From Candidatus Poribacteria bacterium (lineage in GTDB: Bacteria > Poribacteria > WGA-4E > WGA-3G), in the NCBI GenBank assembly GCA_963422705.1, contig OY730443.1, positions 2,270,694-2,334,693 of the forward strand: DNA of 64,000 nt, in the 5' to 3' direction. The position numbers and the translations under genes are program-made. This document shows, one piece after another, positions 29,594-49,502 of the stretch. The notes under the pieces are model-generated. The model saw nothing but the letters and a program-made list of their open reading frames with translations. It was not told the DNA's origin and did no database searches. Positions within the stretch are counted from its first letter, which is position 1, and each line of letters opens with the position of its first letter.

Positions 29594-29634
29594 AATGTAA
29601 TTTTACCCCCGTTCTACGGAAGGAACCGATTGTG

Positions 29635-32582: not shown

Positions 32583-32701
32583 CAGAATAGCTGGCGGTTA
32601 CCCTTGCTAACAATAAGGGTTACGCCAATTCTACGCCCACCGAAACGCCAGCATCCGGACAGGCACACGCGCCTGAAACGCCTGAAGGAACGCAGCGAAT
32701 C

Positions 32702-35700
32702 ATGTCACATCATAAACCTCCTTTTAAGTCCAACATACGCGATAACCACTCCCGCGGAACTGTCGGAAACTTCCTCGACAACGAAATTAAAAAAGGTTCT
32801 AAACTCTCAATCGTCTCCGCATACTTTACAATTTACGCCTTCAATGCACTCAAAGATAGACTGAACGGAATCTCGGAACTCCGATTTCTGTTAGGGCAAC
32901 CCGACTTTATCACCGGTATGTCCCCAGGTGAATCCCAAGAAAAAGCCTTCCATATTCTAGACAGCGGCTTGCACCTTAACCAGCAGCTCCAACAAAAATC
33001 AGTCGCCAACGCATGTGCACAATGGATAAAAGAGAAGGTAGAAATCAAGAGCGCACGGCAATCAAATCTACTCCATGGCAAGATGTATTATATTGAAACC
33101 AACGGTGCGCAAAAAGCGATTATGGGGAGCTCCAATTTTACCGTGCACGGACTCGGACTGAGCCCACGGGCAAATAATATTGAACTCAATTTTGTCGTCG
33201 ATAATGACACCGACAGACAAGAAATCAAAAAATGGTTTGATGATATCTGGAACGAAAAAAAATTGTCACAGATGTTAAGGAAGATGTACTCGCCGAACTC
33301 AACCGGCTCGGAAAAGATTACGCCCCTGAGTTCATCTATTTTAAGACACTCTATGAACTGTTCAGGGATGAAATCGAATCAAGAAGAGATGGCGAACAGC
33401 AACTAGAAGATATGCATCTGTATGATACCCAGATTTGGGACGCGTTATATGGCTTTCAGAAGGACGGCGCCAAAAGCGTCATCGCCCGCCTTTTAAGACA
33501 CAACGGATGCATTTTGGCCGATAGCGTCGGACTCGGCAAAACTTATACTGCACTCGCCGTTATCAAATTTTTTGAACTGAGAAATGAGCGCATCCTTGTT
33601 TTATGCCCAAAAAAACTCAACAACAACTGGGGTAAATATTTAGCGCATACCGCCCAAAAGGACAACCCTTTTCCTAACGATAGGTTCGGTTATACCCTCT
33701 TATCACATACAGACCTTTCCCGTAGCAGCGGCAAAGCCGGCGATATTAACCTGGAAAATTTCAACTGGCGCAATTTTGATATGGTGCTAATTGACGAATC
33801 GCACAACTTCCGAAACGATACGAAACCTATCCGGGATGACGCAGGCAATATCATCCGGCATAGCCGATATACACGCCTCTTGCATGAAATTATCAAGGCA
33901 GGCACAAAAACGAAAGTACTCATGCTTTCCGCAACGCCCGTTAACACATCACTCATTGACCTCCGCAATCAAATTTACCTCATCACAGAGCAGCGCGAGG
34001 ACGCCTTCAACGACAGTTTGGGCATCCAGAACATCGGAACACTGCTACGACAGGCGCAAACGGAATTTAAAGCATGGGAGGAAAAAGAACCTAAACAGGG
34101 AAAAAGAGATAAATCAGAACTATTAAAAACATTGGGCACCGATTTTTTTACATTGCTGGGGGGCATCTCTATTGCACGGGCGCGACGCCATATTGAGAAG
34201 TTTTATGCCGACGAAATACACCGAATCGGGCCATTTCCAAAACAACTCAAACCCGAGAATTGCCACCCTAAGACGGACTTGGAAGGGAAACTTTCTTATG
34301 AAGATTTAACGGTGCTAATCGAGGACTTCTCATTATCTATCTATCGCCCTTCTAGTTACGTCATCAGTGAAACCGCGAAAAAACGGTTGGAACAGGAAAA
34401 AAAGAGATACCGTTTTAATCAGGTGGACAGGGAACGATTTCTTATCGGTATGATGCGGACGAATTTTCTCAAGCGCTTGGAAAGCTCCGCACACTCCCTC
34501 ACAAAAACGCTTGAACGGACAATCGGAAAAATTGATGATATGGTGGAGAGGATAGAACGATTCGAAAAAAAACGCGACAGCCTCCATACACACGCTGATA
34601 TACTGCCCGATGATGACGATGATGATGATGATTTTTTCGTCAATCGCGCACGCAACCCCTATCACCTACGAGAACTGGATTGCACACGATGGAAAATAGA
34701 ACTTAGAAAGGATAAAGAGAGCTTAACCGCAGCATTGAGCAAAGTCAACGTCATCACACCCGAACGGGATGGAAAACTCAAGCAAATCAAGGCACAGATT
34801 AAAGAAAAAGCACAATACTCAACGGTTGATAAGGACGGAAAAGTTAACCGGAAATTGCTAGTTTTCACGACGTTCAAAGATACTGCACTCTATCTTTATC
34901 AAAATCTCGAACCGCTTGCATCGAAACTCGGTATCAACACCGGATTCGTTGCCGGGACGGAAACGCGTACCACTTACGGCAAAAATAATTTTGACGCTAT
35001 CCTCGCCAATTTCGCCCCCCTGGCGCAGAAACGGGGAAAGAACATAAAAGACGAGGCAGAGGACACAAAAGAAGAAATCGATTTACTCATCGCTACCGAC
35101 TGCATCTCCGAAGGACAAAATCTACAGGACTGCGACACTGTATTGAACTATGACATCCACTGGAACCCAGTGCGTATCATACAACGGTTTGGGCGCATCG
35201 ACAGAATCGGAAGCCGAAATACCGCCGTACGGATGATTAACTACTGGCCCACCGAAGATATGGAAGTCTACCTCCGGTTGCAAAGCCGCGTCGAATCACG
35301 AATGGCGCTCGCTGATACAGTCGCCAGTGGCGACGACGACGTGCTCAATGAAATTACTTACGAACAAGCACAAATGGAACTCAACTTCCGGGAACAGCAA
35401 TTGCAGCAATTGCGCCAAGAGGTTCTCGACTTGGATGACATCTCCGATGGCGTCGTCATGAGCGATTTTACCCTCGATTATTTCTTCGTGCAATTGTTGA
35501 AGTATCTCGAAAAAAATAGGGAACAACTAGAAACTACACCGAAAGGGGCATACGCCATCACCGAAAACAGGGATAACCCTTTGGAAACCGACGTCATCTT
35601 TTTTCTCCGACAAATCAATGCAACGACGGATAAATACGCCAAAGTCGCAAGCCCAATTCATCCCTATTCCGCTGTTTACATTCGTGGTAACGGCGACATT

Positions 35701-36015
35701 CAATACGGATGCGCAAACGCAAAACAGGCACTGGAGCTCTTTGAAGCCCACGCTGTGGGTAATGACAAACCGCTGCGAAAACTGTGTCGCCAATTTGAGA
35801 AAGAGACGCAAAATGGCAAAGATATGGAACGTTACAACAAGCTGTTGAAAACGGTTATCGCGCACATCACCAAGACACATACAACCACACAGATAAAAAA
35901 TATGGGAATTCATGGCACCCGCAGCTTTAAACTGACACCCGCGTCTCAAAAACCGAAAGATGATAACGATTTTGAACTGGTAACGTGGCTCATTATTACA
36001 AAACCACTCTCATAA
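32702..36015 (+). CDS. PLD-like (HKD) nuclease domain fused to SNF2-family helicase, interrupted by a frameshift in an A8 tract
   Basis: Segment 1 (32702-33406) carries a single HKD-type motif LHGKMYYIETNGAQKAIMGSSNFT. The reading frame continues without stops in the +2 frame from the A8 run (33255-33262) into segment 2 (33412-36015). Segment 2 has SNF2 motifs I (ADSVGLGKT), II (LIDESHNF), III (LSATPVNT) and VI (QRFGRIDRIGS). Together they would give a ~1100-aa fusion protein. Confidence 0.8.
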
Positions 36016-36051
36016 AACCAATGCCAAAAACAGCGCAAAAATAGGAACATC

Positions 36052-36393
36052 ATGGCACATAAAAATCAATTATTTGAAAGTCGAACCGAATTTATCGCCA
36101 CACGCGGCGTTAAGGAATACCGCGAGACAATACCCACCTGGGTAACTGCAGACGATGTCGTCTTGGAAATCGGATGCGAATGGGGGACAACCACAACTGG
36201 ATACTATCGCACTCCTCACATCGTATTCAACCGTCATGCGCCCCGAGGCAATCATCGTGAAAAGCGGCGCTTTAAAACGGTTTGTCTCACACTGCACCGC
36301 TTGGCGTTCCGCCCAAAAGCAATAACAGGTGACATCAGCAATTTCTTCACCTTCCCAAATCTAAATCGGATACCCACAGCTACACCCCAATGA
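36052..36393 (+). pseudogene. Small SAM-MTase-fold gene, copy with ~200-bp internal deletion
   Basis: The first 49 codons are identical to the intact 156-aa copy at 40193-40663. After ...GTTTT the sequence jumps to the 3' portion of the gene in another frame. Confidence 0.7.
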
Positions 36394-39300
36394 ACAAAGA
36401 ACACATCAGAAACGCACTCGCCGACATCCCCACAGGCACTCTTGTCCAAACCGCAAAAGCCCTCCTCGCGACGTTGGGATACCGCAGCGAGCGGAACCTG
36501 GAACTCTCCGGAACCGTGGACGACTTTATCGAGAATTTCCCCACACGGGGACAAGAGGACAAAAAAGAACCTACCAAAACCGAACAGACATTTTGTAACA
36601 CCGTTGAATCCATCTATGTCGTCTTTCAAATCACAGAAAATGAAGTCAATCCTCAAGCCCAACAGACAGTTGATTTTGCTGAAAAAAGTCTCGCCGAAAG
36701 TTTCTGCTTTTTCGCCGCCGATTTGAAAGAGAAGCCCACATCCCGCAGCCGCTACGCCGAATTGACACGCGAAATCAATAAGCGGCTCTCTATCCCGGCG
36801 GTGGCGCTCTTTCGCACCGGGAACCGGTTGACAATTGGGGTTGCAGGACGCCGGCAACACCGCCGGAAATCGGGGCGCGATGTCATAGAACGGGTGACGC
36901 TCATCAAGGACATTCGCCTCGAAAATCCGCACCGGGCACACCTTGATATCTTGGCAGAACTCGCCCTCGGAGAATGCATGCAATGGATGGATGCCCACAA
37001 AAAACAGAGAAGCTTTGACGAACTCCTCGACACCTGGCTCGCTAAACTCGACACTGAAGAACTCAATAAGCAGTTCTACCGGAGGTTATTCGCATGGTTT
37101 GAATGGGCAATCTCCGAGGCGACGTTCCCAAAAAACGAAAAGAAAATCTTAAAGCCCGAAGAACACGTGATACGACTCATCACACGCATCCTGTTTATCT
37201 GGTTCTTGAAGGAGCAGGGACTGGTTGCCGATGCACTTTTCAATCAAACACAAATCCCTTCCCTTCTAAAAGATGACGATTTCGATAACGGAAGCTCCTA
37301 CTATCGGGCCGTGCTACAAAATCTGTTTTTTGCTACACTGAACACCGAGATAAAGCAACGCGGTTTTAGCAGCAATACACCTACCGGGCATCGCGACTTC
37401 TCGCGTTACCGCTACGCAGCGGAAATACGCGCCCCTGAGAAACTGGTGGAACTCTTCGCGCAAACCCCCTTTGTCAATGGGGGACTGTTTGAGTGTCTCG
37501 ATAGCGAGGAAGCAGCGATGCACGGCGGATACCGCATCGACTGTTTCTCTGATAAACACGGCAAAAAATTGTGCTTCCCCAACCGCCTCTTTTTTGATAA
37601 ACACTGTGGACTCTTCCCCCTCCTCAATCACTACAAATTCACCATAGAAGAGAATATCCCGGTAGAACAAGAAGTCGCCTTGGAACCAGAATTGCTCGGG
37701 AAGGTGTTTGAAAACCTGCTGGCGGCTTACAATCCGGAGACGGGTACGACGGCGCGTAAAGGGACAGGCTCCTACTACACGCCGCGCGTCGTCGTCGACT
37801 ATATGATAGACGAGATAGTGGTTGCAACCCTGGTAGAAAAGTGTCAGCCGTCCGATGGGGACGCGACACTCTGGGAAGAACGCCTGCGCTACCTATTGGA
37901 TTATGGGCAGACGTTTGACGATGCAAATGAATGGTTTGATGCCCCGGAAACCGACGCGATTGTGCGCACAATTTCGGAGCTGAAAATTCTGGAACCGGCC
38001 GTCGGTTCCGGGGCTTTTCCGCGCGCGATGCTCCGAAAACTCACGCTTGCCCTCCGCCGACTCGATTCGGCAAATCAACGATGGCAGCAGCTGCAAAGAA
38101 GACGCGCCGCACAGAGAGCGGAAGATGCCTTTGAAACCGACGATGACGAAGCGCGACGCGAAGAACTCATTGAAATTGATGAGACGTTCAGACGTTACCG
38201 GGATTCCGACTTCGGCAGGAAGTTATACCTCATTCAGAATAACCTTTTCGGGGTGGACATCCAACCCATAGCCTGCCAAATTACCAAGCTCCGCTTCTTT
38301 ATCTCCCTCGCTATTGAGCAGAAACCGGCGCGGCATCTCGATAATTTCGGGTTCAAACCACTCCCAAACCTCGAGACGCGGTTTCTTGCCGCGAATACCC
38401 TTGTCCGGCTGCAAGGGCAACCCGAATTCGTAACAGTCCATATCCAAGCGTTAGAGCGGCAACTCCGCGAGAATCGCGAACGGCACTTCCACGCCACCAC
38501 CCGTCAGCAAAAGCTTGACTGTATTAGCAACGACAAAGCCATCCGCACAGAATTAGCCGCGGCATTAGAGGAACTCGGTTTCTTTGCACGGGACGCCCAA
38601 AACATCGCGCACTGGAACCCTTACCAGCAGAACGAGAATGCCGACTGGTTCGAACCGGAATGGATGTTCGGGATTAACGACGGGTTTGATATCGTGATGG
38701 GGAACCCGCCATATATTTCAGTTACGAAGATTCCTGCCCCGTTGAGGGATTACCTATTCGAAAACTATCAAACCTGTATAAAGAGAACAGATATCTATAT
38801 CGCGTTCCTCGAAAGAGCCCTTTCCATTCTACAGCCGAACGGGATGATGTGTTTTATTCTCTCGTCGGCGTTTGCGAAACAGAAATATGGCGAAAAGATG
38901 CGCAGACGCCTCATAGAAAATCACGCCATCCGCGACATTGTGGATGCGAGCCGTTATCGGATTTTTGAGAATGCGGCAGTACATAACATCGTTTTGCTGG
39001 TAGGCAATCAAAAAACAGATGTCGAAACGCGAATCCGATTGCATACCAGCAACGCGGATTTTGAGACACCGGGTGAGTGCGCATTTTCTATCAAGCAAGA
39101 CGATTTTGCGGAACTGAAAGATGCCCGCCTTGAAACCGCTCCGAATATTCGTGAAAGTCTCAGGGTGAAAAAGAGGATATGGGAGCGCGCGGTGCGTTTC
39201 GATAAGATTTGCCTTGTCGCTTACGGCGCCAGGCTCAATTCCCCTTTAGCGGGAAAAAGAAAACAGGATTACATCAGCGAAGCCCGTCTTGCAGGGCGCA

Positions 39301-39890
39301 AACGGTTTTGTGAAGGAAGAGACATTCGGCGTTATACGTTTTCTCAAACCGGATGGTTACGCTACTCGCCGAATGAACACTACAACCCGATGTTTCCAGA
39401 ACTTTTTGAAACCGAAAAGTTGATGTTTGCCCGTATTGTGAATGAGCGGTTGCGATTTGCTTATGACGCCGAACGGTTCTACAATTGCAATACGGTTATA
39501 AACTGTGTTCGCTTAGATTTACTTTCCGGTGCCTCCCATATCACCGCCCGCCGCGCAACGCAATCTGCTGATAACAAATTCGCGAAGCGGTATGATTACA
39601 AATTTCTGTTGGGCGCTTTAAATTCTGGTGTCACAAATTGGTATTTCCGCAGTTTCTTAAGCACAGGTTTAGATTGTTACCCGGATGATGTAAAAGAGTT
39701 GCCTATCCCAAAAATGTCGCGTCAGCAGCAACAACCGATTATTGGGTTGACATCTCAAATTCTCGCGGCGAAAGCGAGGGATTCGGAGGCGGACGTCTCC
39801 GCTCTTGAAGCGGAGATTGACAGGCTGCTCTGCGCTTTCTACAAGCTTACCGCGGAGGAGATGCGTATCCTGGAGCATGGGCGGGGATGA
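36390..39890 (+). CDS. Eco57I/PglX/DrmMI-like gamma-class N6-adenine DNA methyltransferase with C-terminal TaqI_C-type target-recognition region (paralog 1 of 3)
   Basis: 1166 aa. Motif X GSYYTP, motif I ILEPAVGSGAFP, motif IV GNPPYI. The C-terminal tail LPIPKMSRQQQQPIIG...EIDRLLCAFYKLTAEEMRILE matches the conserved end of Type IIG/PglX enzymes. No PD-(D/E)xK motif was recognised in the long N-terminal domain. Confidence 0.85.
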   Translation: MNKEHIRNALADIPTGTLVQTAKALLATLGYRSERNLELSGTVDDFIENFPTRGQEDKKEPTKTEQTFCNTVESIYVVFQITENEVNPQAQQTVDFAEKSLAESFCFFAADLKEKPTSRSRYAELTREINKRLSIPAVALFRTGNRLTIGVAGRRQHRRKSGRDVIERVTLIKDIRLENPHRAHLDILAELALGECMQWMDAHKKQRSFDELLDTWLAKLDTEELNKQFYRRLFAWFEWAISEATFPKNEKKILKPEEHVIRLITRILFIWFLKEQGLVADALFNQTQIPSLLKDDDFDNGSSYYRAVLQNLFFATLNTEIKQRGFSSNTPTGHRDFSRYRYAAEIRAPEKLVELFAQTPFVNGGLFECLDSEEAAMHGGYRIDCFSDKHGKKLCFPNRLFFDKHCGLFPLLNHYKFTIEENIPVEQEVALEPELLGKVFENLLAAYNPETGTTARKGTGSYYTPRVVVDYMIDEIVVATLVEKCQPSDGDATLWEERLRYLLDYGQTFDDANEWFDAPETDAIVRTISELKILEPAVGSGAFPRAMLRKLTLALRRLDSANQRWQQLQRRRAAQRAEDAFETDDDEARREELIEIDETFRRYRDSDFGRKLYLIQNNLFGVDIQPIACQITKLRFFISLAIEQKPARHLDNFGFKPLPNLETRFLAANTLVRLQGQPEFVTVHIQALERQLRENRERHFHATTRQQKLDCISNDKAIRTELAAALEELGFFARDAQNIAHWNPYQQNENADWFEPEWMFGINDGFDIVMGNPPYISVTKIPAPLRDYLFENYQTCIKRTDIYIAFLERALSILQPNGMMCFILSSAFAKQKYGEKMRRRLIENHAIRDIVDASRYRIFENAAVHNIVLLVGNQKTDVETRIRLHTSNADFETPGECAFSIKQDDFAELKDARLETAPNIRESLRVKKRIWERAVRFDKICLVAYGARLNSPLAGKRKQDYISEARLAGRKRFCEGRDIRRYTFSQTGWLRYSPNEHYNPMFPELFETEKLMFARIVNERLRFAYDAERFYNCNTVINCVRLDLLSGASHITARRATQSADNKFAKRYDYKFLLGALNSGVTNWYFRSFLSTGLDCYPDDVKELPIPKMSRQQQQPIIGLTSQILAAKARDSEADVSALEAEIDRLLCAFYKLTAEEMRILEHGRG

Positions 39891-39930
39891 ATTCTCTGAA
39901 TTTCTGGTTATCGGGTTTCTAATCACATTA

Positions 39931-40192
39931 AAAATAAGGAACAACTAGAAGCTACACCGAAAGGGGCATACGCCATCACCGAAAACAGGGATAACCCTTT
40001 GGAAACCGACGTCATCTTTTTTCTCCGACACAGATAAAAAATATGGGAATTCATGGCACGCGCAGCTTTAAACTGACACCCGCGTTTCAAAAACCGAAAG
40101 ATGATAACGATTTTGAACTGGTAACGTGGCTCATTATTACAAAACCACCCTCATAAAACCAATGCCAAAAACAGCGCAAAAATAGGAACATC
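39931..40192 (+). other. Rearranged partial duplicate of the SNF2 helicase 3' coding end (junction relic of repeat unit 2)
   Basis: Matches 35516-35612 and 35878-36050 with the intervening ~270 bp deleted. Confidence 0.8.
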
Positions 40193-40663
40193 ATGGCACA
40201 TAAAAATCAATTATTTGAAGGTCGAACCGAATTTATCGCCACGCGCGGCGTTAAGGAATACCGCGAGACAATACCCACCTGGGTAACTGCAGACGATGTC
40301 GTCTTGGAAATCGGATGCGAATGGGGGACAACCACAACACTAATCGCCCCGCACTGCCAGAAAGTCATCGCGACTGATATCAGCACCAAATGTATTCACC
40401 GTGCACGAGAAATGTACCCTCAACTTCAATTTGAACTGCTTGACGGTTTTGATATCAGGGCAGCGCTTGAACTTGGTGAACCGTTTAGCAAAATCTACAT
40501 CGATATTTCGGGGCTGTCAGGCTACAACTCACTGCTGGATACTATCGCACTCCTCACATCGTATGCAACCGTCATGCGCCCCGAGGCAATCATCGTGAAA
40601 AGCGGCGCTTTAAAACGGTTTGTCTCACACTGCACCGCTTGGCGTTCCGCCCAAAAGCAATAA
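40193..40663 (+). CDS. Small class-I SAM-dependent methyltransferase-fold protein (156 aa)
   Basis: Motif I-like VLEIGCEWGTTT, acidic beta-2 end VIATDIS, then LQFELLDGFD and IYIDIS. A minimal Rossmann MTase core; function unknown. Confidence 0.4.
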   Translation: MAHKNQLFEGRTEFIATRGVKEYRETIPTWVTADDVVLEIGCEWGTTTTLIAPHCQKVIATDISTKCIHRAREMYPQLQFELLDGFDIRAALELGEPFSKIYIDISGLSGYNSLLDTIALLTSYATVMRPEAIIVKSGALKRFVSHCTAWRSAQKQ

Positions 40664-40727
40664 CAGGTGACATCAGCAATTTCTTCACCTTCCCAAATCT
40701 AAGTCGGATACCTACAGCTACACCCCA

Positions 40728-43700
40728 ATGAACAAAGAACACATCAGAAACGCACTCGCCGACATCCCAACAGGCAATCTTGTCCAAACCGCAAAAGCCC
40801 TCCTCGCGACGATGGGATACCGCAGCGAGCGGAACCTGGAACTCTCCGGAACCGTGGACGACTTTATCGAGAATTTCCCCACACGGGGACAAGAGGACAA
40901 AAAAGAACCTACCAAAACCGAACAGACATTTCGTAACACCGTTGAATCCATCTATGTCGTCTTTCAAATCACAGAAAATGAAATCAATCCTCAAGCCCAA
41001 CAGACAGTTGATTTTGCTGAAAAAAGTCTCGCCGAAAGTTTCTGCTTTTTCGCCGCCGATTTGAAAGAGAAGCCTACCTCCCGCAGCCGCTACGCCGAAT
41101 TGACACGGGAAATCAATAAGCGACTCTCTATCCCGGCGGTGGTGCTCTTTCGCACCGGGAACCGGTTGACAATTGGGGTTGCAGGACGCCGGCAACACCG
41201 CCGGAAATCGGGGCGCGATGTCATAGAACGGGTGACGCTCATCAAGGACATTCGCCTCGAAAATCCGCACCGGGCACACCTTGATATCTTGGCAGAACTC
41301 GCCCTCGGAGAATGCATGCAATGGATGGATGCCCACAAAAAACAGAGAAGCTTTGACGAACTCCTCGACACCTGGCTCGCTAAACTCGACACTGAAGAAC
41401 TCAATAAGCAGTTCTACCGGAGGTTATTCGCATGGTTTGAATGGGCAATCTCCGAGGCGACGTTCCCAAAAAACGAAAAGAAAATCTTAAAGCCCGAAGA
41501 ACACGTGATACGACTCATCACACGCATCCTGTTTATCTGGTTCTTGAAGGAGCAGGGACTGGTTGCCGATGCACTTTTCAATCAAACACAAATCCCTTCC
41601 CTTCTAAAAGATGACGATTTCGATAACGGAAGCTCCTACTATCGGGCCGTGCTACAAAATCTGTTTTTTGCTACACTGAACACCGAGATAAAGCAACGCG
41701 GTTTTAGCAGCAATACACCTACCGGGCATCGCGACTTCTCGCGTTACCGCTACGCAGCGGAAATACGCGCCCCTGAGAAACTGGTGGAACTCTTCGCGCA
41801 AACCCCCTTTGTCAATGGGGGACTGTTTGAGTGTCTCGATAGCGAGGAAGCAGCGATGCACGGCGGATACCGCATCGACTGTTTCTCTGATAAACACGGC
41901 AAAAAATTGTGCTTCCCCAACCGCCTCTTTTTTGATAAACACTGTGGACTCTTCCCCCTCCTCAATCACTACAAATTCACCATAGAAGAGAATATCCCGG
42001 TAGAACAAGAAGTCGCCTTGGAACCAGAATTGCTCGGGAAGGTGTTTGAAAACCTGCTGGCGGCTTACAATCCGGAGACGGGTACGACGGCGCGTAAAGG
42101 GACAGGCTCCTACTACACGCCGCGCGTCGTCGTCGACTATATGATAGACGAGATAGTGGTTGCAACCCTGGTAGAAAAGTGTCAGCCGTCCGATGGGGAC
42201 GCGACACTCTGGGAAGAACGCCTGCGCTACCTATTGGATTATGGGCAGACGTTTGACGATGCAAATGAATGGTTTGATGCCCCGGAAACCGACGCGATTG
42301 TGCGCACAATTTCGGAGCTGAAAATTCTGGAACCGGCCGTCGGTTCCGGGGCTTTTCCGCTCGCGATGCTCCGAAAACTCACGCTTGCCCTCCGCCGACT
42401 CGATTCGGCAAATCAACGATGGCAGCAGCTGCAAAGAAGACGCGCCGCACAGAGAGCGGAAGATGCCTTTGAAACCGACGATGACGAAGCGCGACGCGAA
42501 GAACTCATTGAAATTGATGAGACGTTCAGACGTTACCGGGATTCCGACTTCGGCAGGAAGTTATACCTCATTCAGAATAACCTTTTCGGGGTGGACATCC
42601 AACCCATAGCCTGCCAAATTACCAAGCTCCGCTTCTTTATCTCCCTCGCTATTGAGCAGAAACCGGCGCGGCATCTCGATAATTTCGGGTTCAAACCACT
42701 CCCAAACCTCGAGACGCGGTTTCTTGCCGCGAATACCCTTGTCCGGCTGCAAGGGCAACCCGAATTCGTAACAGTCCATATCCAAGCGTTAGAGCGGCAA
42801 CTCCGCGAGAATCGCGAACGGCACTTCCACGCCACCACCCGTCAGCAAAAGCTTGACTGTATTAGCAACGACAAAGCCATCCGCACAGAATTAGCCGCGG
42901 CATTAGAGGAACTCGGTTTCTTTGCACGGGACGCCCAAAACATCGCGCACTGGAACCCTTACCAGCAGAACGAGAATGCCGACTGGTTCGAACCGGAATG
43001 GATGTTCGGGATTAACGACGGGTTTGATATCGTGATGGGGAACCCGCCATATATTTCAGTTACGAAGATTCCTGCCCCGTTGAGGGATTACCTATTCGAA
43101 AACTATCAAACCTGTATAAAGAGAACAGATATCTATATCGCGTTCCTCGAAAGAGCCCTCTCCATTCTACAGCCGAACGGGATGATGTGTTTTATTCTCT
43201 CGTCGGCGTTTGCGAAACAGAAATATGGCGAAAAGATGCGCAGACGCCTCATAGAAAATCACGCCATCCGCGACATTGTGGATGCAAGCCGTTATCGGAT
43301 TTTTGAGAATGCGGCAGTACATAACATCGTTTTGCTGGTAGGCAATCAAAAAACAGATGTCGAAACGCGAATCCGATTGCATACCAGCAACGCGGATTTT
43401 GAGACACCGGGTGAGTGCGCATTTTCTATCAAGCAAGACGATTTTGCGGAACTGAAAGATGCCCGCCTTGAAACCGCTCCGAATATTCGTGAAAGTCTCA
43501 GGGTGAAAAAGAGGATATGGGAGCGCGCGGTGCGTTTCGATAAGATTTGCCTTGTCGCTTACGGCGCCAGGCTCAATTCCCCTTCAGCGGGAAAAAGAAA
43601 ACAGGATTACATCAGCGATGTCCGTCTTCCACGAGGTAAACGGTTTTGTGAAGGAAGAGACATTCGGCGTTATACGTTTTCTCAAACCGGATGGTTACGC

Positions 43701-44228
43701 TACTCGCCGAATGAACACTACAACTCGATGTTTCCAGAACTTTTTGAAACCGAAAAGTTGATGTTTCTCGGGATTGTAAAAGAGGGGTTGCGATGTGCTT
43801 ATGACGCCGAACGGTTCTACAATTGCAGCACGGTTATAAACTGTGTTCGCTTAGATTTACTTTCCGGTGCCTCTCATATCACAGCCCGCCGCGCAACGCA
43901 ATCTGCTGATAACAAATTCGTGAAGCGGTATGATTACAAATTTCTGTTGGGCGTTTTAAATTCTGGCGTCACAAATTGGTATTTCCGCAGCTTTTTAAGC
44001 GAGGGGTTACATTGTCACCCAAATGATGTAAAAGAGTTGCCTATTCCAAAAATGCCGCGCCAGCAGCAGCAACCGATTATTGGGTTGACATCTCACATTC
44101 TCGCGGCGAAAGCGGAGGATTCGGAGGCGGACGTCTCCGCTCTTGAAGCGGAGATTGACAGGCTGCTCTGCGCTTTCTACAACTTTACGCCGGAGGAGAT
44201 GCGTATCCTGGAGTGTAGGTGGGGATAA
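40728..44228 (+). CDS. Eco57I/PglX/DrmMI-like N6-adenine DNA methyltransferase (paralog 2, TRD variant)
   Basis: 1166 aa with the same motifs as paralog 1. Near-identical to paralog 1 except for clustered substitutions in the C-terminal ~250 aa (DVRLPRG, LGIVKEGLRC, SEGLHCHPND, YNFTPEEMRILECRWG). Confidence 0.85.
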   Translation: MNKEHIRNALADIPTGNLVQTAKALLATMGYRSERNLELSGTVDDFIENFPTRGQEDKKEPTKTEQTFRNTVESIYVVFQITENEINPQAQQTVDFAEKSLAESFCFFAADLKEKPTSRSRYAELTREINKRLSIPAVVLFRTGNRLTIGVAGRRQHRRKSGRDVIERVTLIKDIRLENPHRAHLDILAELALGECMQWMDAHKKQRSFDELLDTWLAKLDTEELNKQFYRRLFAWFEWAISEATFPKNEKKILKPEEHVIRLITRILFIWFLKEQGLVADALFNQTQIPSLLKDDDFDNGSSYYRAVLQNLFFATLNTEIKQRGFSSNTPTGHRDFSRYRYAAEIRAPEKLVELFAQTPFVNGGLFECLDSEEAAMHGGYRIDCFSDKHGKKLCFPNRLFFDKHCGLFPLLNHYKFTIEENIPVEQEVALEPELLGKVFENLLAAYNPETGTTARKGTGSYYTPRVVVDYMIDEIVVATLVEKCQPSDGDATLWEERLRYLLDYGQTFDDANEWFDAPETDAIVRTISELKILEPAVGSGAFPLAMLRKLTLALRRLDSANQRWQQLQRRRAAQRAEDAFETDDDEARREELIEIDETFRRYRDSDFGRKLYLIQNNLFGVDIQPIACQITKLRFFISLAIEQKPARHLDNFGFKPLPNLETRFLAANTLVRLQGQPEFVTVHIQALERQLRENRERHFHATTRQQKLDCISNDKAIRTELAAALEELGFFARDAQNIAHWNPYQQNENADWFEPEWMFGINDGFDIVMGNPPYISVTKIPAPLRDYLFENYQTCIKRTDIYIAFLERALSILQPNGMMCFILSSAFAKQKYGEKMRRRLIENHAIRDIVDASRYRIFENAAVHNIVLLVGNQKTDVETRIRLHTSNADFETPGECAFSIKQDDFAELKDARLETAPNIRESLRVKKRIWERAVRFDKICLVAYGARLNSPSAGKRKQDYISDVRLPRGKRFCEGRDIRRYTFSQTGWLRYSPNEHYNSMFPELFETEKLMFLGIVKEGLRCAYDAERFYNCSTVINCVRLDLLSGASHITARRATQSADNKFVKRYDYKFLLGVLNSGVTNWYFRSFLSEGLHCHPNDVKELPIPKMPRQQQQPIIGLTSHILAAKAEDSEADVSALEAEIDRLLCAFYNFTPEEMRILECRWG

Positions 44229-44268
44229 ATTCTCTGAATTTCTGGTTATCGGGTTTCTAATCGCATTG

Positions 44269-47200
44269 TGAAACGCGGGGTAACAAATTTTTTGTATGCG
44301 TGCATAAAAACTCGGTAAAAGATTAGCGGGACTACTATGTGAAAAGCGGCGCTTTAAAACTGTTTGTCTCACACTGCAATCTAAGTCGGATACCCACAGC
44401 TACACCCCAATGAACAAAGAACACATCAGAAACGCACTCGCCGACATCCCCACAGGCACTCTTGTCCAAACCGCAAAAGCCCTCCTCGCGACGTTGGGAT
44501 ACCGCAGCGAGCGGAACCTGGAACTCTCCGGAACCGTGGACGACTTTATCGAGAATTTCCCCACACGGGGACAAGAGGACAAAAAAGAACCTACTAAAAC
44601 CGAACAGACATTTCGTAACACCGTTGAATCCATCTATGTCGTCTTTCAAATCACAGAAAATGAAGTCAATCCTCAAGCCCAACAGACAGTTGATTTTGCT
44701 GAAAAAAGTCTCGCCGAAAGTTTCTGCTTTTTCGCCGCCGATTTGAAAGAGAAGCCCACATCCCGCAGCCGCTACGCCGAATTGACACGCGAAATCAATA
44801 AGCGGCTCTCTATCCCGGCGGTGGCGCTCTTTCGCACCGGGAACCGGTTGACAATTGGGTTTGCAGGACGCCGGCAACACCGCCGGAAATCGGGGCTCGA
44901 TGTCATAGAACGGGTGACGCTCATCAAGGACATTCGCCTCGAAAATCCGCACCGCGCACACCTTGATATCTTGGCAGAACTCGCCCTGGGAGAATGCCTG
45001 CAATGGATGGATGCCCACAAAAAACAGAGAAACTTTGACGGACTCCTCGACACCTGGTTCGCTAAACTCGACACCGAAGAACTCAATAAGCAGTTCTACC
45101 GGAGGTTATTCGCATGGTTTGAATGGGCAATCTCCGAGGCGACGTTCCCAAAAAACGAAAAGAAAATCTTAAAGCCAGAAGAACACGTGATACGATTCAT
45201 TACACGCATCCTGTTTATCTGGTTCTTGAAGGAGCAGGGACTGGTTGCCGACGCACTTTTCAATCAAACACAAATCCCTTCCCTTCTAAAAGATGACGAT
45301 TTCGATAACGGAAGCTCCTACTATCGGGCCGTGCTACAAAATCTGTTTTTCGCTACACTGAACACCGAGATAACGCGGCGCGGTTTTAGCAGCAATACAC
45401 CTACCGGGCATCGCGACTTCTCGCGTTACCGCTACGCAGCGGAGATACGCGCCCCTGAGAAACTGTTGGAACTCTTCGCGCAAACCCCCTTTGTCAATGG
45501 CGGACTGTTTGAGTGTCTCGATAGCGAGGAGGCAGCGATGCACGGCGGATACCGCATCGACTGTTTCTCTGATAAACACGGCAAAAAATTGTGCTTCCCC
45601 AACCGTCTCTTTTTTGATAAACACCGCGGACTCTTCCCCCTCCTCAATCACTACAAATTCACCATAGAAGAGAATACCCCGGTAGAACAAGAAGTCGCCT
45701 TGGAACCAGAATTGCTCGGGAAGGTGTTTGAAAACCTGCTGGCGGCTTACAACCCGGAAACGGGTACGACGGCGCGTAAAGGGACAGGCTCCTACTACAC
45801 GCCGCGCGTCATCGTCGACTATATGATAGACGAGATAGTGGTTGCAACCCTGGTAGAAAAGTGTCAGCCGTCCGATGGGGACGCGACACTCTGGGAAGAA
45901 CGCCTTCGCTACCTATTGGATTATGGGCAGACGTTTGACGATGCAAATGAATGGTTTGATGCACCGGAAACTGACGCGATTGTGCGCACAATTTCGGAGC
46001 TGAAAATTCTGGAACCGGCCGTCGGTTCCGGGGCTTTTCCGCGCGCGATGCTCCGAAAACTCACGCTTGCCCTCCGCCGACTCGATTCGGCAAATCAACG
46101 ATGGCAGCAGCTGCAAAGGAGACGCGCCGCACAGAGAGCAGAAGATGCCTTTGAAACCGACGATGACGAAGCGCGACGCGAAGAACTCATTGAAATTGAT
46201 GAGACGTTCAGACGTTACCGGGATTCCGACTTCGGCAGGAAGTTATACCTCATTCAGAATAACCTTTTCGGGGTGGACATCCAACCCATAGCCTGCCAAA
46301 TTACCAAGCTCCGCTTCTTTATCTCCCTCGCTATTGAGCAGAAACCGGCGCGGCATCTCGATAATTTCGGGTTCAAACCGCTCCCAAACCTCGAGACGCG
46401 GTTTCTTGCCGCGAATACCCTCGTCGGGCTGCAAGGGCAACCCGAATTAGTAACAGTCCATGTCCAAGCGTTAGAGCGGCAACTCCGCGAGAATCGCGAA
46501 CGGCACTTCCACGCCACCACCCGTCAGCAAAAGCTTGACTGTATTAGCAACGACAAAGCCATCCGCACAGAATTAGCCGCGGCATTAGAGGAACTCGGGT
46601 TCTCTGCACGTAACGCCGAAAACATCGCGCACTGGAACCCTTACGAGCAGAACGAGAACGCCGACTGGTTCGAACCGGAATGGATGTTCGGGATTAACGA
46701 TGGTTTTGATATCGTGATGGGGAACCCGCCATATATTTCAGTTACGAAGATTCCTGCCCCGTTGAGGGATTACCTATTCGAAAACTATCAAACCTGTATC
46801 AGGAGAACAGATATCTATATCGCGTTCCTCGAAAGAGCCCTCTCCATTCTACAGCCGAACGGGATGATGTGTTTTATTCTCTCGTCGGCGTTTGCGAAAC
46901 AGAAATATGGCGAAAAGATGCGCAGACGCCTCATAGAAAATCACGCCATCCGCGACATTGTGGATGCAAGCCGTTATCGGATTTTTGAGAATGCGGCAGT
47001 ACATAACATCGTTTTGCTGGTAGGCAATCAAAAAACAGATGTCGAAACGCAAATCCGATTGCATACCAGCAACGCGGATTTTGAGACACCGGGTGAATGC
47101 GCATTTTCTATCAAGCAAGACGTTTTTGCGGAACTGAAAGATGCCCGCCTTGAAACCGCTCCGAATATTCGTGAAAGTCTCAGGGTGAAAAAGAGGATAT

Positions 47201-47950
47201 GGGAGCGCGCGGTGCGTTTCGATAAGATTTGCCTTGTCGCTTACGGCGCCAGGCTCAATTCCCCTTCAGCGGGAAAAAGAAAACAGGATTACATCAGCGA
47301 AGCCCGTCTTGCAGGGCGCAAACGGTTTTGTGAAGGAAGAGACATTCGGCGTTATACGTTTTCTCAAACCGGATGGTTACGCTACTCGCCGAATGAACAC
47401 TACAACCCGATGTTTCCAGAACTTTTTGAAACCGAAAAGTTGATGTTTACCTGTATTGTGAATGAGCGGTTGCGATTTGCTTATGACGCCGAACGGTTCT
47501 ACAATTCCCACACGGTTATAAACTGTGTTCGCTTAGATTTACTTTCCGGTGCCTCCCATATCACCGCCCGCCGCGCAACGCAATCTGCTGATAACAAATT
47601 CGCGAAGCGGTATGATTACAAATTTCTGTTGGGCGTTTTAAATTCTGGCGTCACAAATTGGTATTTCCGCAGTTTCTTAAGCACAGGTTTAAATTGTTAC
47701 CCGGATGATGTAAAAGAGTTGCCTATCCCAAAAATGTCGCGCCAGCAGCAACAACCGATTATTGGGTTGACATCTCAAATTCTCGCGGCGAAAGCGGAGG
47801 ATTCGGAGGCGGACGTCTCCGCTCTTGAAGCGGAGATTGACAGGCTGCTCTGCGCTTTCTACAAGCTTACCGCGGAGGAGATGAGTATCCTGGAGCATGG
47901 GCGGGGATGAATTCTCTGAATTTCTGGTTATCAGGTTTCTAATCACATTG
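44269..47950 (+). repeat. Tandem repeat unit 3 (~3.7 kb)
   Basis: Only the last ~35 bp of the small gene remain upstream of paralog 3. Confidence 0.8.
44410..47910 (+). CDS. Eco57I/PglX/DrmMI-like N6-adenine DNA methyltransferase (paralog 3)
   Basis: 1166 aa and overall the most divergent copy, with substitutions scattered along its length. Its TRD patches resemble paralog 1. Confidence 0.85.
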   Translation: MNKEHIRNALADIPTGTLVQTAKALLATLGYRSERNLELSGTVDDFIENFPTRGQEDKKEPTKTEQTFRNTVESIYVVFQITENEVNPQAQQTVDFAEKSLAESFCFFAADLKEKPTSRSRYAELTREINKRLSIPAVALFRTGNRLTIGFAGRRQHRRKSGLDVIERVTLIKDIRLENPHRAHLDILAELALGECLQWMDAHKKQRNFDGLLDTWFAKLDTEELNKQFYRRLFAWFEWAISEATFPKNEKKILKPEEHVIRFITRILFIWFLKEQGLVADALFNQTQIPSLLKDDDFDNGSSYYRAVLQNLFFATLNTEITRRGFSSNTPTGHRDFSRYRYAAEIRAPEKLLELFAQTPFVNGGLFECLDSEEAAMHGGYRIDCFSDKHGKKLCFPNRLFFDKHRGLFPLLNHYKFTIEENTPVEQEVALEPELLGKVFENLLAAYNPETGTTARKGTGSYYTPRVIVDYMIDEIVVATLVEKCQPSDGDATLWEERLRYLLDYGQTFDDANEWFDAPETDAIVRTISELKILEPAVGSGAFPRAMLRKLTLALRRLDSANQRWQQLQRRRAAQRAEDAFETDDDEARREELIEIDETFRRYRDSDFGRKLYLIQNNLFGVDIQPIACQITKLRFFISLAIEQKPARHLDNFGFKPLPNLETRFLAANTLVGLQGQPELVTVHVQALERQLRENRERHFHATTRQQKLDCISNDKAIRTELAAALEELGFSARNAENIAHWNPYEQNENADWFEPEWMFGINDGFDIVMGNPPYISVTKIPAPLRDYLFENYQTCIRRTDIYIAFLERALSILQPNGMMCFILSSAFAKQKYGEKMRRRLIENHAIRDIVDASRYRIFENAAVHNIVLLVGNQKTDVETQIRLHTSNADFETPGECAFSIKQDVFAELKDARLETAPNIRESLRVKKRIWERAVRFDKICLVAYGARLNSPSAGKRKQDYISEARLAGRKRFCEGRDIRRYTFSQTGWLRYSPNEHYNPMFPELFETEKLMFTCIVNERLRFAYDAERFYNSHTVINCVRLDLLSGASHITARRATQSADNKFAKRYDYKFLLGVLNSGVTNWYFRSFLSTGLNCYPDDVKELPIPKMSRQQQQPIIGLTSQILAAKAEDSEADVSALEAEIDRLLCAFYKLTAEEMSILEHGRG

Positions 47951-48072
47951 TGAATGGTTTTTTGGTACCTGATACCCTTCTTTTCTGTGTTGCGTTCAGA
48001 TGGCAATACCTCCCAAAAAGTTGTATATAACCGACATCCCCGGGTGTTGCACATCTAAAAGGAGTGTTTACA

Positions 48073-48954: not shown

Positions 48955-48958
48955 ATTC

Positions 48959-49257: not shown

Positions 49258-49502
49258 AGAAAGGCAGAAATCTTATTCTTTTGGGCTACCTACGACGCCT
49301 GTCTTCCACGAAGTAAACGGTTTTGTGAAGGAAAATGCATTGCGCGCTGTGCCCGTTTGTTACGGTAGTCAGATGCTTCGCGAAAACAGGGACATCCGTC
49401 CAACGTGAGATGCTGTCAGTCGGCGCGCATCGACATCAGAGCAAAGATTCGCAAGTTAGGCGGTGCCCGGCGGTTGAGCATCCGGTATTGCATGGCGAAA
49501 AA

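What the first reader, a model, noticed from the sequence alone, without database searches (positions are those of the whole stretch)
35513..47950. Architecture of the triplication: duplication began inside the helicase gene and each unit carries a different deletion
The repeat unit is [3' ~500 bp of the SNF2 gene]-[small MTase-fold gene]-[large MTase]. Unit 1 has the genuine helicase 3' end but a ~200-bp deletion in the small gene. Unit 2 (39931-40192) keeps a helicase-3' relic with a ~270-bp internal deletion and an intact small gene. Unit 3 has lost almost all of both. The units share >95% identity over ~3.5 kb, so unequal crossover can change copy number. In metagenomic assemblies such arrays often collapse, so copy number in the cell is uncertain.
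Basis: seen in the sequence. Interest (0 to 1): 0.6.

Follow-up and report, generated by a model that had tools for sequence, protein, structure and literature searches.

The report
Triplicated methyltransferase gene in defence locus
A sponge-symbiont (Poribacteria-like) chromosome carries three intact, recombining tandem copies of the DNA methyltransferase gene of a nuclease-helicase-methylase defence system; the array is real and its recognition domains differ most, but it is a variant of known tandem-paralogue evolution, not a new kind of system.

Summary
Three direct repeats (35512-39929, 39930-44267, 44268-47949) are 96.9-98.1% identical over about 3.6 kb. Each holds an intact 1166-aa Eco57I/TaqI_C-type N6-adenine methyltransferase gene. 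Unit 2 starts 504 bp before the helicase stop codon. The deletions measure 277 bp (helicase relic, unit 2) and 197 bp (small gene, unit 1).

The interpretation needs three corrections:
- Unit 3 is not a trimmed copy of the same unit. Its left junction keeps 5 bp more of the native flank plus 66 bp of unrelated filler, so it comes from a separate event, inferred to be older.
- The copies are mosaics. Informative sites form 32 runs, against 74.6±5.1 in shuffles. The central 2.3 kb is homogenised and the recognition-domain end is most divergent, which indicates gene conversion.
- The small gene is a passenger, not a system component.

The syntenic locus of the closest relative has one copy. Another Poribacteria chromosome has an independent tandem with a helicase relic and unrelated recognition domains. 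A separate 1x contig shows other unit and block combinations.

In 26 of 26 relatives the PLD nuclease and SNF2 helicase are one fused gene. Here an A8 tract frameshift splits it.

Different specificities for the three copies are inferred, not shown. Moderate interest; new variant of a known kind.

The parts
32702..33406 (+). PLD (HKD) nuclease ORF, 234 aa. It is the 5' part of a PLD-SNF2 gene that is a single fused ORF in relatives.
   Evidence: Pfam PLDc_2 1.7e-11 and RE_NgoFVII 1.3e-9. Fused homologue residues 1-193 align to 32702-33280 in frame 2.
33255..33262 (+). A8 homopolymer tract where the reading frame shifts by -1. An A9 tract would restore the fused PLD-SNF2 ORF.
   Evidence: Sequence. 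The tblastn frame changes between 33259 and 33280. 26 of 26 related loci are fused. The tract is absent from all homologues. The same A8 is present in the Logan contig L050.
33412..36015 (+). SNF2-type helicase/translocase ORF, 867 aa from the first ATG. The frame is open from 33244.
   Evidence: Pfam Helicase_C, SNF2-rel_dom and ResIII. PADLOC C3a139 'HKD+Snf2' 9.2e-93.
35512..39929 (+). Repeat unit 1 (4418 bp): the genuine last 504 bp of the helicase gene, the small-gene pseudogene, and methyltransferase copy A.
36052..36393 (+). Small class I SAM-MTase-fold gene with a 197-bp frameshifting deletion. A 113-aa ORF remains and overlaps the copy A start codon (ATGA).
   Evidence: tblastn: residues 1-49 match the intact copy and the rest is in another frame. 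Alignment.
36390..39890 (+). Methyltransferase copy A, 1166 aa (blocks alpha-I, alpha-II, A-type III).
   Evidence: Pfam Eco57I 3.7e-35, N6_Mtase and TaqI_C. Variable-site table.
39930..44267 (+). Repeat unit 2 (4338 bp): helicase 3' relic lacking 277 bp (39930-40156), intact small gene, and methyltransferase copy B.
40193..40663 (+). Intact small class I SAM-dependent methyltransferase-fold gene, 156 aa. It is a passenger in the helicase-MTase gap.
   Evidence: Pfam Methyltransf_25. More than 1000 homologues at 65-88% identity. Housekeeping context in another genome of unidentified organism. Same position in the syntenic locus L023.
40728..44228 (+). Methyltransferase copy B, 1166 aa (blocks beta-I, alpha-II, B-type III). 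Its recognition-domain end is the most divergent.
44268..44377 (+). Unit 2/unit 3 junction: 5 bp of native distal flank (GTGAA), 66 bp of unique filler (44273-44338), then 39-40 bp of small-gene 3' remnant.
44378..47949 (+). Repeat unit 3 core: 32 bp of leader plus methyltransferase copy C (44410-47910, 1166 aa; blocks alpha-I, gamma-II, C-type III).
49293..49346 (+). 54-nt intergenic relic resembling the B-type version of the recognition-domain stretch (ORF nt about 2889-2942). Possibly a remnant of an older methyltransferase copy.
   Evidence: the repeat finder family D5. Alignment. 33 nt at 97% to 43624-43656.

Best explanation
SHOWN. The region is a real, lineage-specific tandem array of three intact paralogues of the methyltransferase (specificity-bearing) gene. 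The gene belongs to a chromosomal PLD(HKD)-SNF2-methyltransferase system of restriction-modification type. All close relatives are Candidatus Poribacteria, so the host is probably a sponge symbiont.

The array was built by at least two separate illegitimate duplications:
- One event produced copy C. Its junction is 44272|44273 and carries 66 bp of filler.
- The other event duplicated 35512-39929. It started 504 bp before the helicase stop codon and produced units 1 and 2.
- Later deletions removed 277 bp of the redundant helicase relic in unit 2 and 197 bp of one copy of a passenger small gene in unit 1.
- That the copy C event is the older one is inferred from the junction logic, not shown.

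The copies are mosaics of haplotype blocks. The central 2.3 kb of copies A and B is almost identical. The 5' block and especially the 3' block, which encodes the TaqI_C-type target recognition domain (TRD), are divergent.

INFERRED (mechanism of the mosaic). The copies have exchanged segments by gene conversion and unequal crossing-over. This matches the known behaviour of tandem paralogue clusters that recombine through a conserved central region.

INFERRED (function). The three enzymes share N-terminal and catalytic parts but differ at recognition-domain positions that are otherwise conserved or bimodal in the family. They therefore probably methylate different or overlapping sets of sites. 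If so, they give one nuclease-motor module several specificities.

In this genome the nuclease-motor gene is split by a -1 frameshift in an A8 tract. Restriction may therefore be off, reduced, or switchable, and the methyltransferases may currently act as orphan modification enzymes.
For: Repeats and intact ORFs.

Two different junctions.

Mosaic structure:
- Informative sites form 32 runs, against 74.6±5.1 in 10,000 shuffles (minimum 55).
- dS between A and B is 0.004 in block II, 0.053 in block I and 0.117 in block III.
- The non-coding 5' parts of units 1 and 2 differ by 7 of 408 positions. The near-identity of block II therefore reflects homogenisation, not recency.

Selection:
- dN/dS is about 0.2 in blocks I and II and 0.5-0.96 in block III.
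- Variant residues fall on family-conserved or bimodal positions: 1014/1015, 1033/1034, 1092/1095/1097/1099. Each copy has its own combination.

The recognition domain is the variable module across the family. The C-terminal part is 25-70% identical between homologues, against about 60% for the N-terminal part and core.

Ancestral single copy: the syntenic locus L023 reads CBS-PFOR-PLD/SNF2-small gene-one MTase-FNR-DUF6807.

Independent recurrence: L019 (Poribacteria chromosome OZ244042.1) has two tandem MTases.
- They are separated by a relic of the last 141 bp of the helicase gene.
- The 5' 2.5 kb is 97% identical and the 1.1-1.2 kb recognition-domain parts are unrelated at DNA level.

Heterogeneity: L043 carries the same junction but other unit and block combinations.

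System conservation: the PLD-SNF2-MTase order is present in about 30 loci.

Frameshift in the PLD-SNF2 gene.

Literature:
- A few residue changes re-programme specificity in MmeI-family enzymes (PMC2731914).
- Type II RM genes next to PLD+SNF helicase genes are known targets of specificity-switching inversions (PMC9881135).
- Tandem paralogue clusters recombine through a central conserved region (PMC2568036).
Against: - No methylome or biochemical data exist, so different specificities are not shown.
- dN/dS of 0.5-0.96 in the recognition domain is equally compatible with relaxed constraint on redundant copies.
- Several substitutions hit nearly invariant residues (I1014, H1034, Y1097) and could be damaging rather than re-programming.
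- With the nuclease-motor gene frameshifted, selection for defence specificity may be absent at present.
- L043 has 1x coverage and is flagged circular. Its two 'V' units are 100% identical, including an indel, and all its complete copies carry a 1-nt indel. Its copy order is therefore weak evidence.
- It may come from the same data set as the window.
- Part of the block divergence, notably B-type block III at 7.4%, may come from imported alleles rather than exchange within the array.
Confidence: 0.7

Rival explanations
1. Neutral or dosage amplification. The array is a recent, unstable segmental amplification with no change of specificity. The recognition-domain differences reflect relaxed selection on redundant copies, possibly because restriction is already inactivated by the frameshift. 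The array will shrink again by recombination.
For: - Decay of the non-selected parts: 277-bp and 197-bp deletions, and loss of most of the unit 3 leader.
- dN/dS approaches 1 between A and C in block III.
- Substitutions fall at nearly invariant residues.
- The PLD-SNF2 gene is frameshifted.
- Tandem arrays are rare: two lineages among about 30 loci.
- The copies in L043 carry frameshifts.
Against: - All three 3.5-kb ORFs are intact while flanking relics decayed.
- dN/dS is about 0.2 over 2.8 kb.
- Multi-allelic changes concentrate on positions that are bimodal in the family: 1015 R/N, 1092 D/E, 1095 H/N.
- L019 keeps two intact tandem copies with entirely different recognition domains. This shows that such arrays can hold distinct specificities.
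Confidence: 0.25
2. Assembly artefact. The three copies are strain variants of a single-copy gene that the assembler laid out in tandem, or a mis-resolved repeat.
For: - The source is metagenomic.
- A leftover 1x contig with another arrangement exists.
- The block mosaic could in principle arise from mis-phasing.
Against: - Each unit has a structurally unique 5' part and two different junction sequences.
- The array lies in a 4.0-Mb contig.
- The unit 1/unit 2 junction recurs in an independent contig.
- The Logan k-mer contig breaks exactly at the repeat entry.
- A chromosome-level relative shows the same architecture with an independent break point.
Confidence: 0.04
3. Allele capture. The array grew mainly by homologous or illegitimate integration of methyltransferase alleles from other strains, using the conserved helicase 3' end and gene body as anchors. 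In this view duplication of the resident gene played a smaller part.
For: - Synonymous divergence of B-type block III (0.117) is twice that of block I and 30 times that of block II.
- B carries E1092/H1095, like one family class, while C carries N1095, like the other.
- The B-type patch recurs in the 54-nt relic at 49293-49346.
- The 66-bp filler at the unit 3 junction is of unknown origin.
- In L019 the two recognition domains are unrelated.
Against: - The 5' parts of units 1 and 2, including the passenger small gene and helicase relic, are 98% identical. They are clearly copies of the resident sequence.
- No integrase or mobile element lies at the locus.
- No donor allele was found in the collections searched.
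Confidence: 0.15

Closest known systems
Type II RM (Cj0031-like, Type IIG) genes adjacent to a PLD + SNF-helicase gene, reported as targets of programmed inversions (Milman et al. 2023, PMC9881135); also PADLOC candidate 'C3a139 HKD+Snf2'
   Same: - Same gene set: an Eco57I-type N6-adenine methyltransferase with a C-terminal recognition domain next to a PLD-SNF2 protein.
- The methyltransferase is the component whose specificity is diversified.
   Different: - Here variation comes from full-length direct-repeat paralogues and gene conversion. No inverted partial copies or invertase are involved: no inverted repeats were found in 30-52 kb.
- The PLD-SNF2 gene is frameshifted in this genome.
- No experimental data exist for either system.
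Tandem paralogue clusters that recombine through a central conserved region (S. aureus lpl cluster; Tsuru & Kobayashi 2008, PMC2568036)
   Same: - The repeat unit is out of register with the ORFs.
- A conserved central segment has variable 5' and 3' ends that are shuffled.
- Arrangements differ between genomes.
   Different: - Only three copies.
- The genes are DNA methyltransferases of a defence system, not lipoproteins.
- Between-genome evidence rests on one low-coverage contig.
MmeI-family Type IIL/IIG enzymes, whose specificity changes with a few recognition-domain residues (Morgan & Luyten 2009, PMC2731914; Callahan 2016, PMC4833311)
   Same: - A large single-chain gamma-class N6-adenine methyltransferase with a C-terminal recognition domain.
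- Close paralogues differ at a handful of recognition-domain positions.
   Different: - No Pfam MmeI domains were hit for copy A.
- No recognisable N-terminal nuclease.
- Cleavage is presumably delegated to the separate PLD-SNF2 protein.
- The specificity-determining residues are not mapped in this family.
Class 1 DISARM and BREX-related 'Type-2 BR' systems (PMC12839542)
   Same: They share a PLD/HKD nuclease, an SNF2 helicase and an N6-adenine methyltransferase as building blocks.
   Different: - DrmA/DrmB (DUF1998), the DUF499 ATPase and DUF3780 are absent from the locus.
- NCBIfam DrmD and PglX scores are far below their cut-offs.
CglI/NgoAVII-type ATP-dependent restriction systems (PLD nuclease + SF2 helicase-like ATPase + methyltransferase; own knowledge, not checked in a paper here)
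   Same: A PLD nuclease of the NgoFVII type (Pfam RE_NgoFVII 1.3e-9) works with a helicase-like ATPase.
   Different: - In those systems the PLD protein carries its own DNA-binding domain and the methyltransferase is a small C5 enzyme.
- Here the PLD part has no extra domain and the large methyltransferase carries the recognition domain.

Membership tests
Eco57I-type (gamma-class) N6-adenine DNA methyltransferase with TaqI_C recognition domain | Pfam Eco57I / N6_Mtase domain above the gathering score | tested here: met
   Eco57I 122 bits (cut-off 25.3); N6_Mtase 48.1 bits (cut-off 20.4)
Eco57I-type (gamma-class) N6-adenine DNA methyltransferase with TaqI_C recognition domain | SAM-binding motif I (xxGxGxF) and catalytic motif IV (NPPY), in that order | tested here: met
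   'EPAVGSGAF' and 'GNPPYI' are read directly in the translation of copy A. Both are nearly invariant in the 34-sequence alignment.
Eco57I-type (gamma-class) N6-adenine DNA methyltransferase with TaqI_C recognition domain | C-terminal TaqI_C-type target recognition domain | tested here: met
   TaqI_C 40.5 bits (cut-off 26.5), residues 973-1104
Type IIG bifunctional restriction-modification enzyme | N-terminal endonuclease domain in the same polypeptide | tested here: inconclusive
   - No Pfam hit in residues 1-460.
- AlphaFold model: pLDDT 74, with a beta-sheet core at 72-176.
- Foldseek against PDB gave nothing below E = 0.05.
PADLOC C3a139 'HKD+Snf2' / fused PLD-SNF2 effector | PLD and SNF2 domains in one polypeptide | tested here: not met
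   The window gene is split by a -1 frameshift in an A8 tract at 33255-33262. It is fused in 26 of 26 related loci. The sequence match itself is strong (9.2e-93).
Class 1 DISARM | DrmA helicase and DrmB (DUF1998) core genes in the locus | tested here: not met
   Pfam scans of all neighbouring ORFs from 26081 to 56138 show PFOR, CBS, PALP, ABC and DUF6807 only. DrmD NCBIfam score is 140 bits against a cut-off of 610.
BREX-related Type-2 BR system (PMC12839542) | DUF499 AAA+ ATPase and DUF3780 gene next to the MTase and HKD-SNF2 helicase | tested here: not met
   Neither family was hit in the locus or its flanks.
BREX (PglX methyltransferase) | PglX equivalog score, with PglZ and BrxC in the locus | tested here: not met
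   BREX_1_MTaseX 77.9 bits against a cut-off of 500. No PglZ or BrxC nearby.
Tandem paralogue cluster with recombination through a conserved central region | Conserved centre, with incongruent relationships of the 5' and 3' variable parts | tested here: met
   Block I groups A with C, block II groups A with B, and block III groups A with C, with B far away. Runs test: 32 runs against 74.6±5.1.
Tandem paralogue cluster with recombination through a conserved central region | Different arrangements of the same blocks in different genomes of the species | tested here: inconclusive
   L043 shows beta-I with A-type III, and alpha-I with C-type III, in another unit order. It is a 1x contig with indels and two identical units.
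Phase-variable (contingency) restriction-modification locus | Simple-sequence tract inside the coding region whose length sets the reading frame | tested here: met
   The A8 tract at 33255-33262 is out of frame, and A9 would restore the fusion.
Phase-variable (contingency) restriction-modification locus | Tract-length variation among cells or reads | not testable with these tools
   No reads are available. The only other assembly of this stretch (L050) also has A8.

The most novel reading that the evidence does not exclude
Direct-repeat arrays of full-length methyltransferase/specificity genes may be a recombination-driven way for sponge symbionts to multiply and reshuffle the specificities of a single PLD-SNF2 nuclease-motor.
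- Copy number and recognition-domain combinations would differ between cells.
- The nuclease-motor itself would be switched by slippage in a poly-A tract.
- This would be a second route to variable restriction-modification specificity, besides invertase-driven shufflons.
Probability: 0.2. Interest if true: 0.7.

Novelty: new variant of a known kind. Interest (0 to 1): 0.42.

Why it matters
Sponge symbionts are known for very large repertoires of restriction-modification genes, but how these repertoires diversify in place is poorly documented.

This locus gives a dated series in one chromosome:
- a single-copy ancestor, seen in the syntenic relative;
- two successive duplications with different junctions;
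- trimming of redundant parts;
- gene conversion that keeps the catalytic body uniform while the recognition domain diverges.

A second species shows the same architecture with fully different recognition domains. If the three enzymes methylate different motifs, one nuclease-motor would be armed with several specificities by simple tandem duplication.

Practical points:
- The array sits in a long-read assembly, so each copy can be matched to a 6mA motif from the kinetic or nanopore signal of the same data.
- It is also a concrete warning for annotation. The 'PLD' and 'SNF2' genes here are two halves of one frameshifted gene.

Tried and rejected
Searches that failed or were capped:
Other strains could therefore not be sampled there.
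- Exact look-ups of copies A, B and C and of the helicase returned 'not on record', although the cluster table lists them on a 4.0-Mb contig. The source sample of the window could not be named.

Analyses that gave nothing useful:
- Promoter and terminator scans gave fewer sites than shuffles, so they say nothing about separate transcription of the copies.
- The 66-bp filler at the unit 3 junction has no match in the window or in 42 loci.
- The downstream ORFs 48064-48954 and 49335-49802 are not silent recognition-domain cassettes. tblastn with the methyltransferase finds nothing there, and only a 54-nt relic exists.

System assignments rejected on missing core genes and sub-threshold scores:
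- DISARM
- BREX
- Type-2 BR systems

Other:
- The L019 recognition domains were compared with all loci to find donors, and none was found.
- The first attempt at a family alignment timed out and was redone on the C-terminal part only.

Full report
**1. The observation**

Self-comparison of 33-50 kb confirms three direct repeats:

| Match | Identity | Length |
|---|---|---|
| 36187-39929 = 40524-44267 | 98.13% | 3744 nt |
| 36358-39929 = 44378-47949 | 98.01% | 3572 nt |
| 40696-44272 = 44378-47954 | 96.87% | 3577 nt |
| 35887-36197 = 40028-40338 | 98.4% | 311 nt |
| 35512-35612 = 39930-40030 | 98.0% | 101 nt |

Each repeat holds an intact 1166-codon ORF: A at 36390-39890, B at 40728-44228 and C at 44410-47910.

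A global alignment fixes the anatomy:
- Unit 1 is 35512-39929 (4418 bp) and unit 2 is 39930-44267 (4338 bp).
- Unit 2 lacks 277 bp of the helicase 3' end (35610-35886).
- Unit 1 lacks 197 bp of the small gene (equivalent to 40338-40534). This shifts the frame and leaves a 113-aa ORF that runs into the start codon of A.
- Unit 3 keeps only 39-40 bp of the small gene.

**2. What the genes are**

- The large ORFs are gamma-class N6-adenine DNA methyltransferases. Pfam gives Eco57I 3.7e-35, N6_Mtase, and TaqI_C at residues 973-1104. Motifs 'EPAVGSGAF' and 'GNPPYI' are visible in the translation.
- PADLOC places them with Type IIG RE-MTases.
- The closest solved relatives by sequence are CamA, BseCI and TaqI, through the catalytic core only.
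- Upstream lie a PLD (HKD) nuclease ORF (32702-33406) and an SNF2 helicase ORF (33412-36015). The helicase matches the PADLOC model 'HKD+Snf2' at 9.2e-93.
- The flanks are housekeeping genes: CBS, pyruvate:ferredoxin oxidoreductase, an FNR-like reductase, DUF6807, an ABC transporter and BamA. The system is therefore a small chromosomal island.

**3. Relatives**

A scan of species-representative genomes returned 42 loci. Nearly all are Candidatus Poribacteria, and the best identity is 66-68%.

- The order PLD-SNF2-(gap)-methyltransferase recurs in about 30 of them.
- Across homologues the N-terminal part and the catalytic core stay near 60% identical. The C-terminal recognition part ranges from 25% to 70%. 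It is the variable module of the family.
- The closest relative with the small gene, L023 (OZ244048.1), is fully syntenic: CBS-PFOR-PLD/SNF2-small gene-one methyltransferase-FNR-DUF6807. A single copy is therefore the ancestral state and the triplication is lineage-specific.

**4. Two events, not one**

- The unit 1/unit 2 junction reads ...CTAATCACATT|AAAAATAAGGAAC. It joins the 3' flank of the methyltransferase to helicase codon 701.
- The unit 2/unit 3 junction is different. The 3' flank of B runs 5 bp further (GTGAA), exactly as the native distal flank does at 47950-47954.
- That flank is then joined to 66 bp found nowhere else in the window or in the loci.
- After the filler come a 39-40-bp small-gene remnant, a 62-bp gap and the 32-bp leader.

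A tandem duplication of 35512-39929 placed upstream of an already existing unit 3 junction explains why unit 2, and not unit 1, is followed by GTGAA. On this reading the unit 3 event came first, and only the second event began inside the helicase gene. This order is an inference.

**5. Mosaic copies**

The 123 variable sites fall into blocks:
- ORF nt -14 to 416: A equals C, and B differs.
- ORF nt 451 to 2714: A equals B (3 differences), and C differs at about 55 sites.
- ORF nt 2858 to 3536: B differs from A and C at about 40 sites. A and C differ at 12, and three sites are three-way.

Informative sites form 32 runs, against 74.6±5.1 (minimum 55) in 10,000 shuffles.

Synonymous divergence between A and B is 0.053 in block I, 0.004 in block II and 0.117 in block III. 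The non-coding 5' parts of units 1 and 2 differ by 7 of 408 positions. The near-identity of block II is therefore later homogenisation, not recency. The high synonymous divergence of block III suggests that one recognition-domain segment came from a more distant allele.

dN/dS is about 0.2 in blocks I and II and 0.5-0.96 in block III.

**6. Where the recognition domains differ**

I compared the three copies with 94 homologues of the same recognition-domain type.
- The copies differ at positions that are otherwise nearly invariant: I1014, S1033, H1034, Y1097, N1099.
- They also differ at positions that are bimodal and co-varying in the family: 1015 R/N, 1092 D/E and 1095 H/N. Each copy has its own combination there: A is R-T-D, B is G-E-H and C is C-T-N.

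In MmeI-family enzymes, a few such residues set single bases of the recognition sequence (PMC2731914). Different specificities for A, B and C are therefore plausible. They are not shown, and relaxed constraint would give a similar picture.

**7. Independent evidence for the array and for rearrangement**

- All three proteins sit on one 4,001,648-bp contig.
- The 90%-identity cluster holds two further members on ENA contig ERZ25070844 ctg7049_1x_c (L043, 14,452 bp). The name format means coverage and circular/linear flag. It is confirmed by ctg565595_66x_c, a 5.59-Mb contig.
- L043 contains the following, in order:
  - the last 2122 nt of a methyltransferase, 100% identical to 37808-39929;
  - the same unit 1/unit 2 junction;
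  - a unit with the complete helicase 3' end and the 197-bp-deleted small gene;
  - two unit 2-type units.
- Its copies combine the same blocks differently: alpha-I with C-type III, and beta-I with A-type III.
- Caveats on L043:
  - coverage is 1x;
  - the ends overlap by 1359 nt, hence the 'circular' flag;
  - the two unit 2-type units are 100% identical, including a 1-nt deletion;
  - each complete copy has a 1-nt indel.
- L043 is therefore suggestive, not conclusive, evidence for heterogeneity.
- A Logan contig of run ERR11641160 (L050) is 100% identical to 22702-35563. It ends 30 nt after the last unit 1/unit 2 difference, as expected if the reads contain both contexts.

**8. A second, independent case**

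In L019 (Poribacteria chromosome OZ244042.1) two methyltransferase genes stand in tandem. A relic of the last 141 bp of the helicase gene lies between them.
- 9791-12319 equals 13677-16208 at 97% identity.
- The following 1.1-1.2 kb, which holds the recognition domain, is unrelated at DNA level.
- The last 125 bp match again at 90%.

The break point differs from the one in the window, so the event is independent. The outcome is a uniform 5' body with different recognition domains. This is the same pattern in a more advanced state.

**9. The small gene and the gap**

- The 156-aa class I methyltransferase-fold gene has more than 1000 homologues at 65-88% identity. In another genome, whose organism was not identified, it sits among housekeeping genes. 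It is a passenger.
- In other loci the helicase-methyltransferase gap holds Gp49/HI1420-type toxin-antitoxin pairs, a TnpB gene or a 1591-aa ORF. The gap is an insertion hot spot.

**10. The nuclease-motor gene is frameshifted**

- In 26 of 26 related loci, and in three further contigs, PLD and SNF2 form one ORF of about 1090-1100 aa.
- In the window, homologue residues 1-193 align in one frame (32702-33280) and residues 187-1096 in another (33259-36012).
- The switch lies in an A8 tract at 33255-33262. An A9 tract would restore 'WNEKKIVTDVKED'.
- The tract is unique to this lineage, and L050 shows the same A8.
- Both halves are otherwise intact.
- The state of restriction cannot be decided here: off, rescued by slippage, phase-variable, or working as two polypeptides.

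**11. Comparison with known systems**

- The closest published context is the Cj0031-like Type II RM gene next to a PLD+SNF helicase gene, listed among targets of programmed inversions (PMC9881135). The gene set and the diversified component are the same. The mechanism differs: here there are direct full-length paralogues and no inverted repeats.
- The recombination pattern matches the tandem-paralogue model of Tsuru and Kobayashi (PMC2568036).
- DISARM, BREX and Type-2 BR systems share domains, but their core genes are absent and scores are far below the cut-offs.

**12. Verdict**

The array is real. It was built in at least two steps, is reshaped by recombination, and diverges most where DNA is recognised. 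Its functional meaning (several specificities, dosage, or decay) is open. I rate it a new variant of a known kind, with moderate interest.

Noticed in passing
window 33255-33262 (with 32702-36015): The PLD and SNF2 ORFs are two halves of a gene that is a single fused ORF in 26 of 26 related loci. Here they are split by a -1 frameshift in an A8 tract unique to this lineage, and A9 would restore the fusion. This could be a pseudogene, a phase-variable switch or a transcriptional-slippage site.
   Followed up: partly
window 49293-49346: A 54-nt intergenic stretch between convergent genes resembles the B-type version of the methyltransferase recognition-domain segment (33 nt at 97% to 43624-43656). 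It is perhaps a remnant of an older copy. There is no protein-level homology around it.
   Followed up: partly
L019 9791-17416 (OZ244042.1): An independent tandem of two methyltransferase genes, with a 141-bp helicase relic between them. The 5' 2.5 kb is 97% identical and the recognition-domain parts are unrelated. The same chromosome holds two further copies of the family without PLD-SNF2 (L027, L037).
   Followed up: partly
L043 (ENA ERZ25070844 ctg7049_1x_c), whole contig: A 1x-coverage contig flagged circular. Its ends overlap by 1359 nt, giving a 13,093-bp cycle of one unit 1-like and two identical unit 2-like units. It may be a single read from a longer array, a graph cycle or an excised circle.
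   Followed up: partly
L028 7943-13480 (OZ246958.1): At the same chromosomal site (directly after the PFOR beta subunit) this genome has the methyltransferase but no PLD-SNF2 gene. It is apparently an orphan left after loss of the restriction module.
   Followed up: no
L002, L004, L007, L008, L015, L030 (about 9.0-9.95 kb); L029 8261-9473; L018 5058-9834: In relatives the gap between the helicase and methyltransferase genes is an insertion hot spot. It holds Gp49-like toxin plus HI1420-type antidote pairs, an IS605-family TnpB gene, or a 1591-aa ORF (unscanned; reads like a helicase).
   Followed up: partly
L031 11020-12177; L023 10849-10983: In L031 the methyltransferase gene is interrupted by about 1.15 kb at codon 342. 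In L023 there is a break of about 130 nt near codons 288-302. These may be insertions or frameshifts in otherwise conserved genes.
   Followed up: no
L002, L007, L010, L017, L021, L022, L024, L025, L030, L035, about 0.5-2 kb downstream of the methyltransferase: Many loci carry a gene with 102-bp (34-aa) internal tandem repeats just downstream. In L052 and L053 the corresponding product hits FRG plus many TPR families. The window lacks it.
   Followed up: no
window 50236-50327: Two tandem copies of a 46-nt sequence (96% identical). They overlap the start of the FNR-like reductase gene (minus strand; the ORF runs to 50273) and extend into the spacer before the DUF6807 gene.
   Followed up: no
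window 48064-49195: Two ORFs with no family hit lie between the array and the FNR-like gene: a 296-aa ORF with an N-terminal hydrophobic segment, and a 117-aa ORF. The syntenic relative L023 has about 3.2 kb of other sequence there.
   Followed up: no
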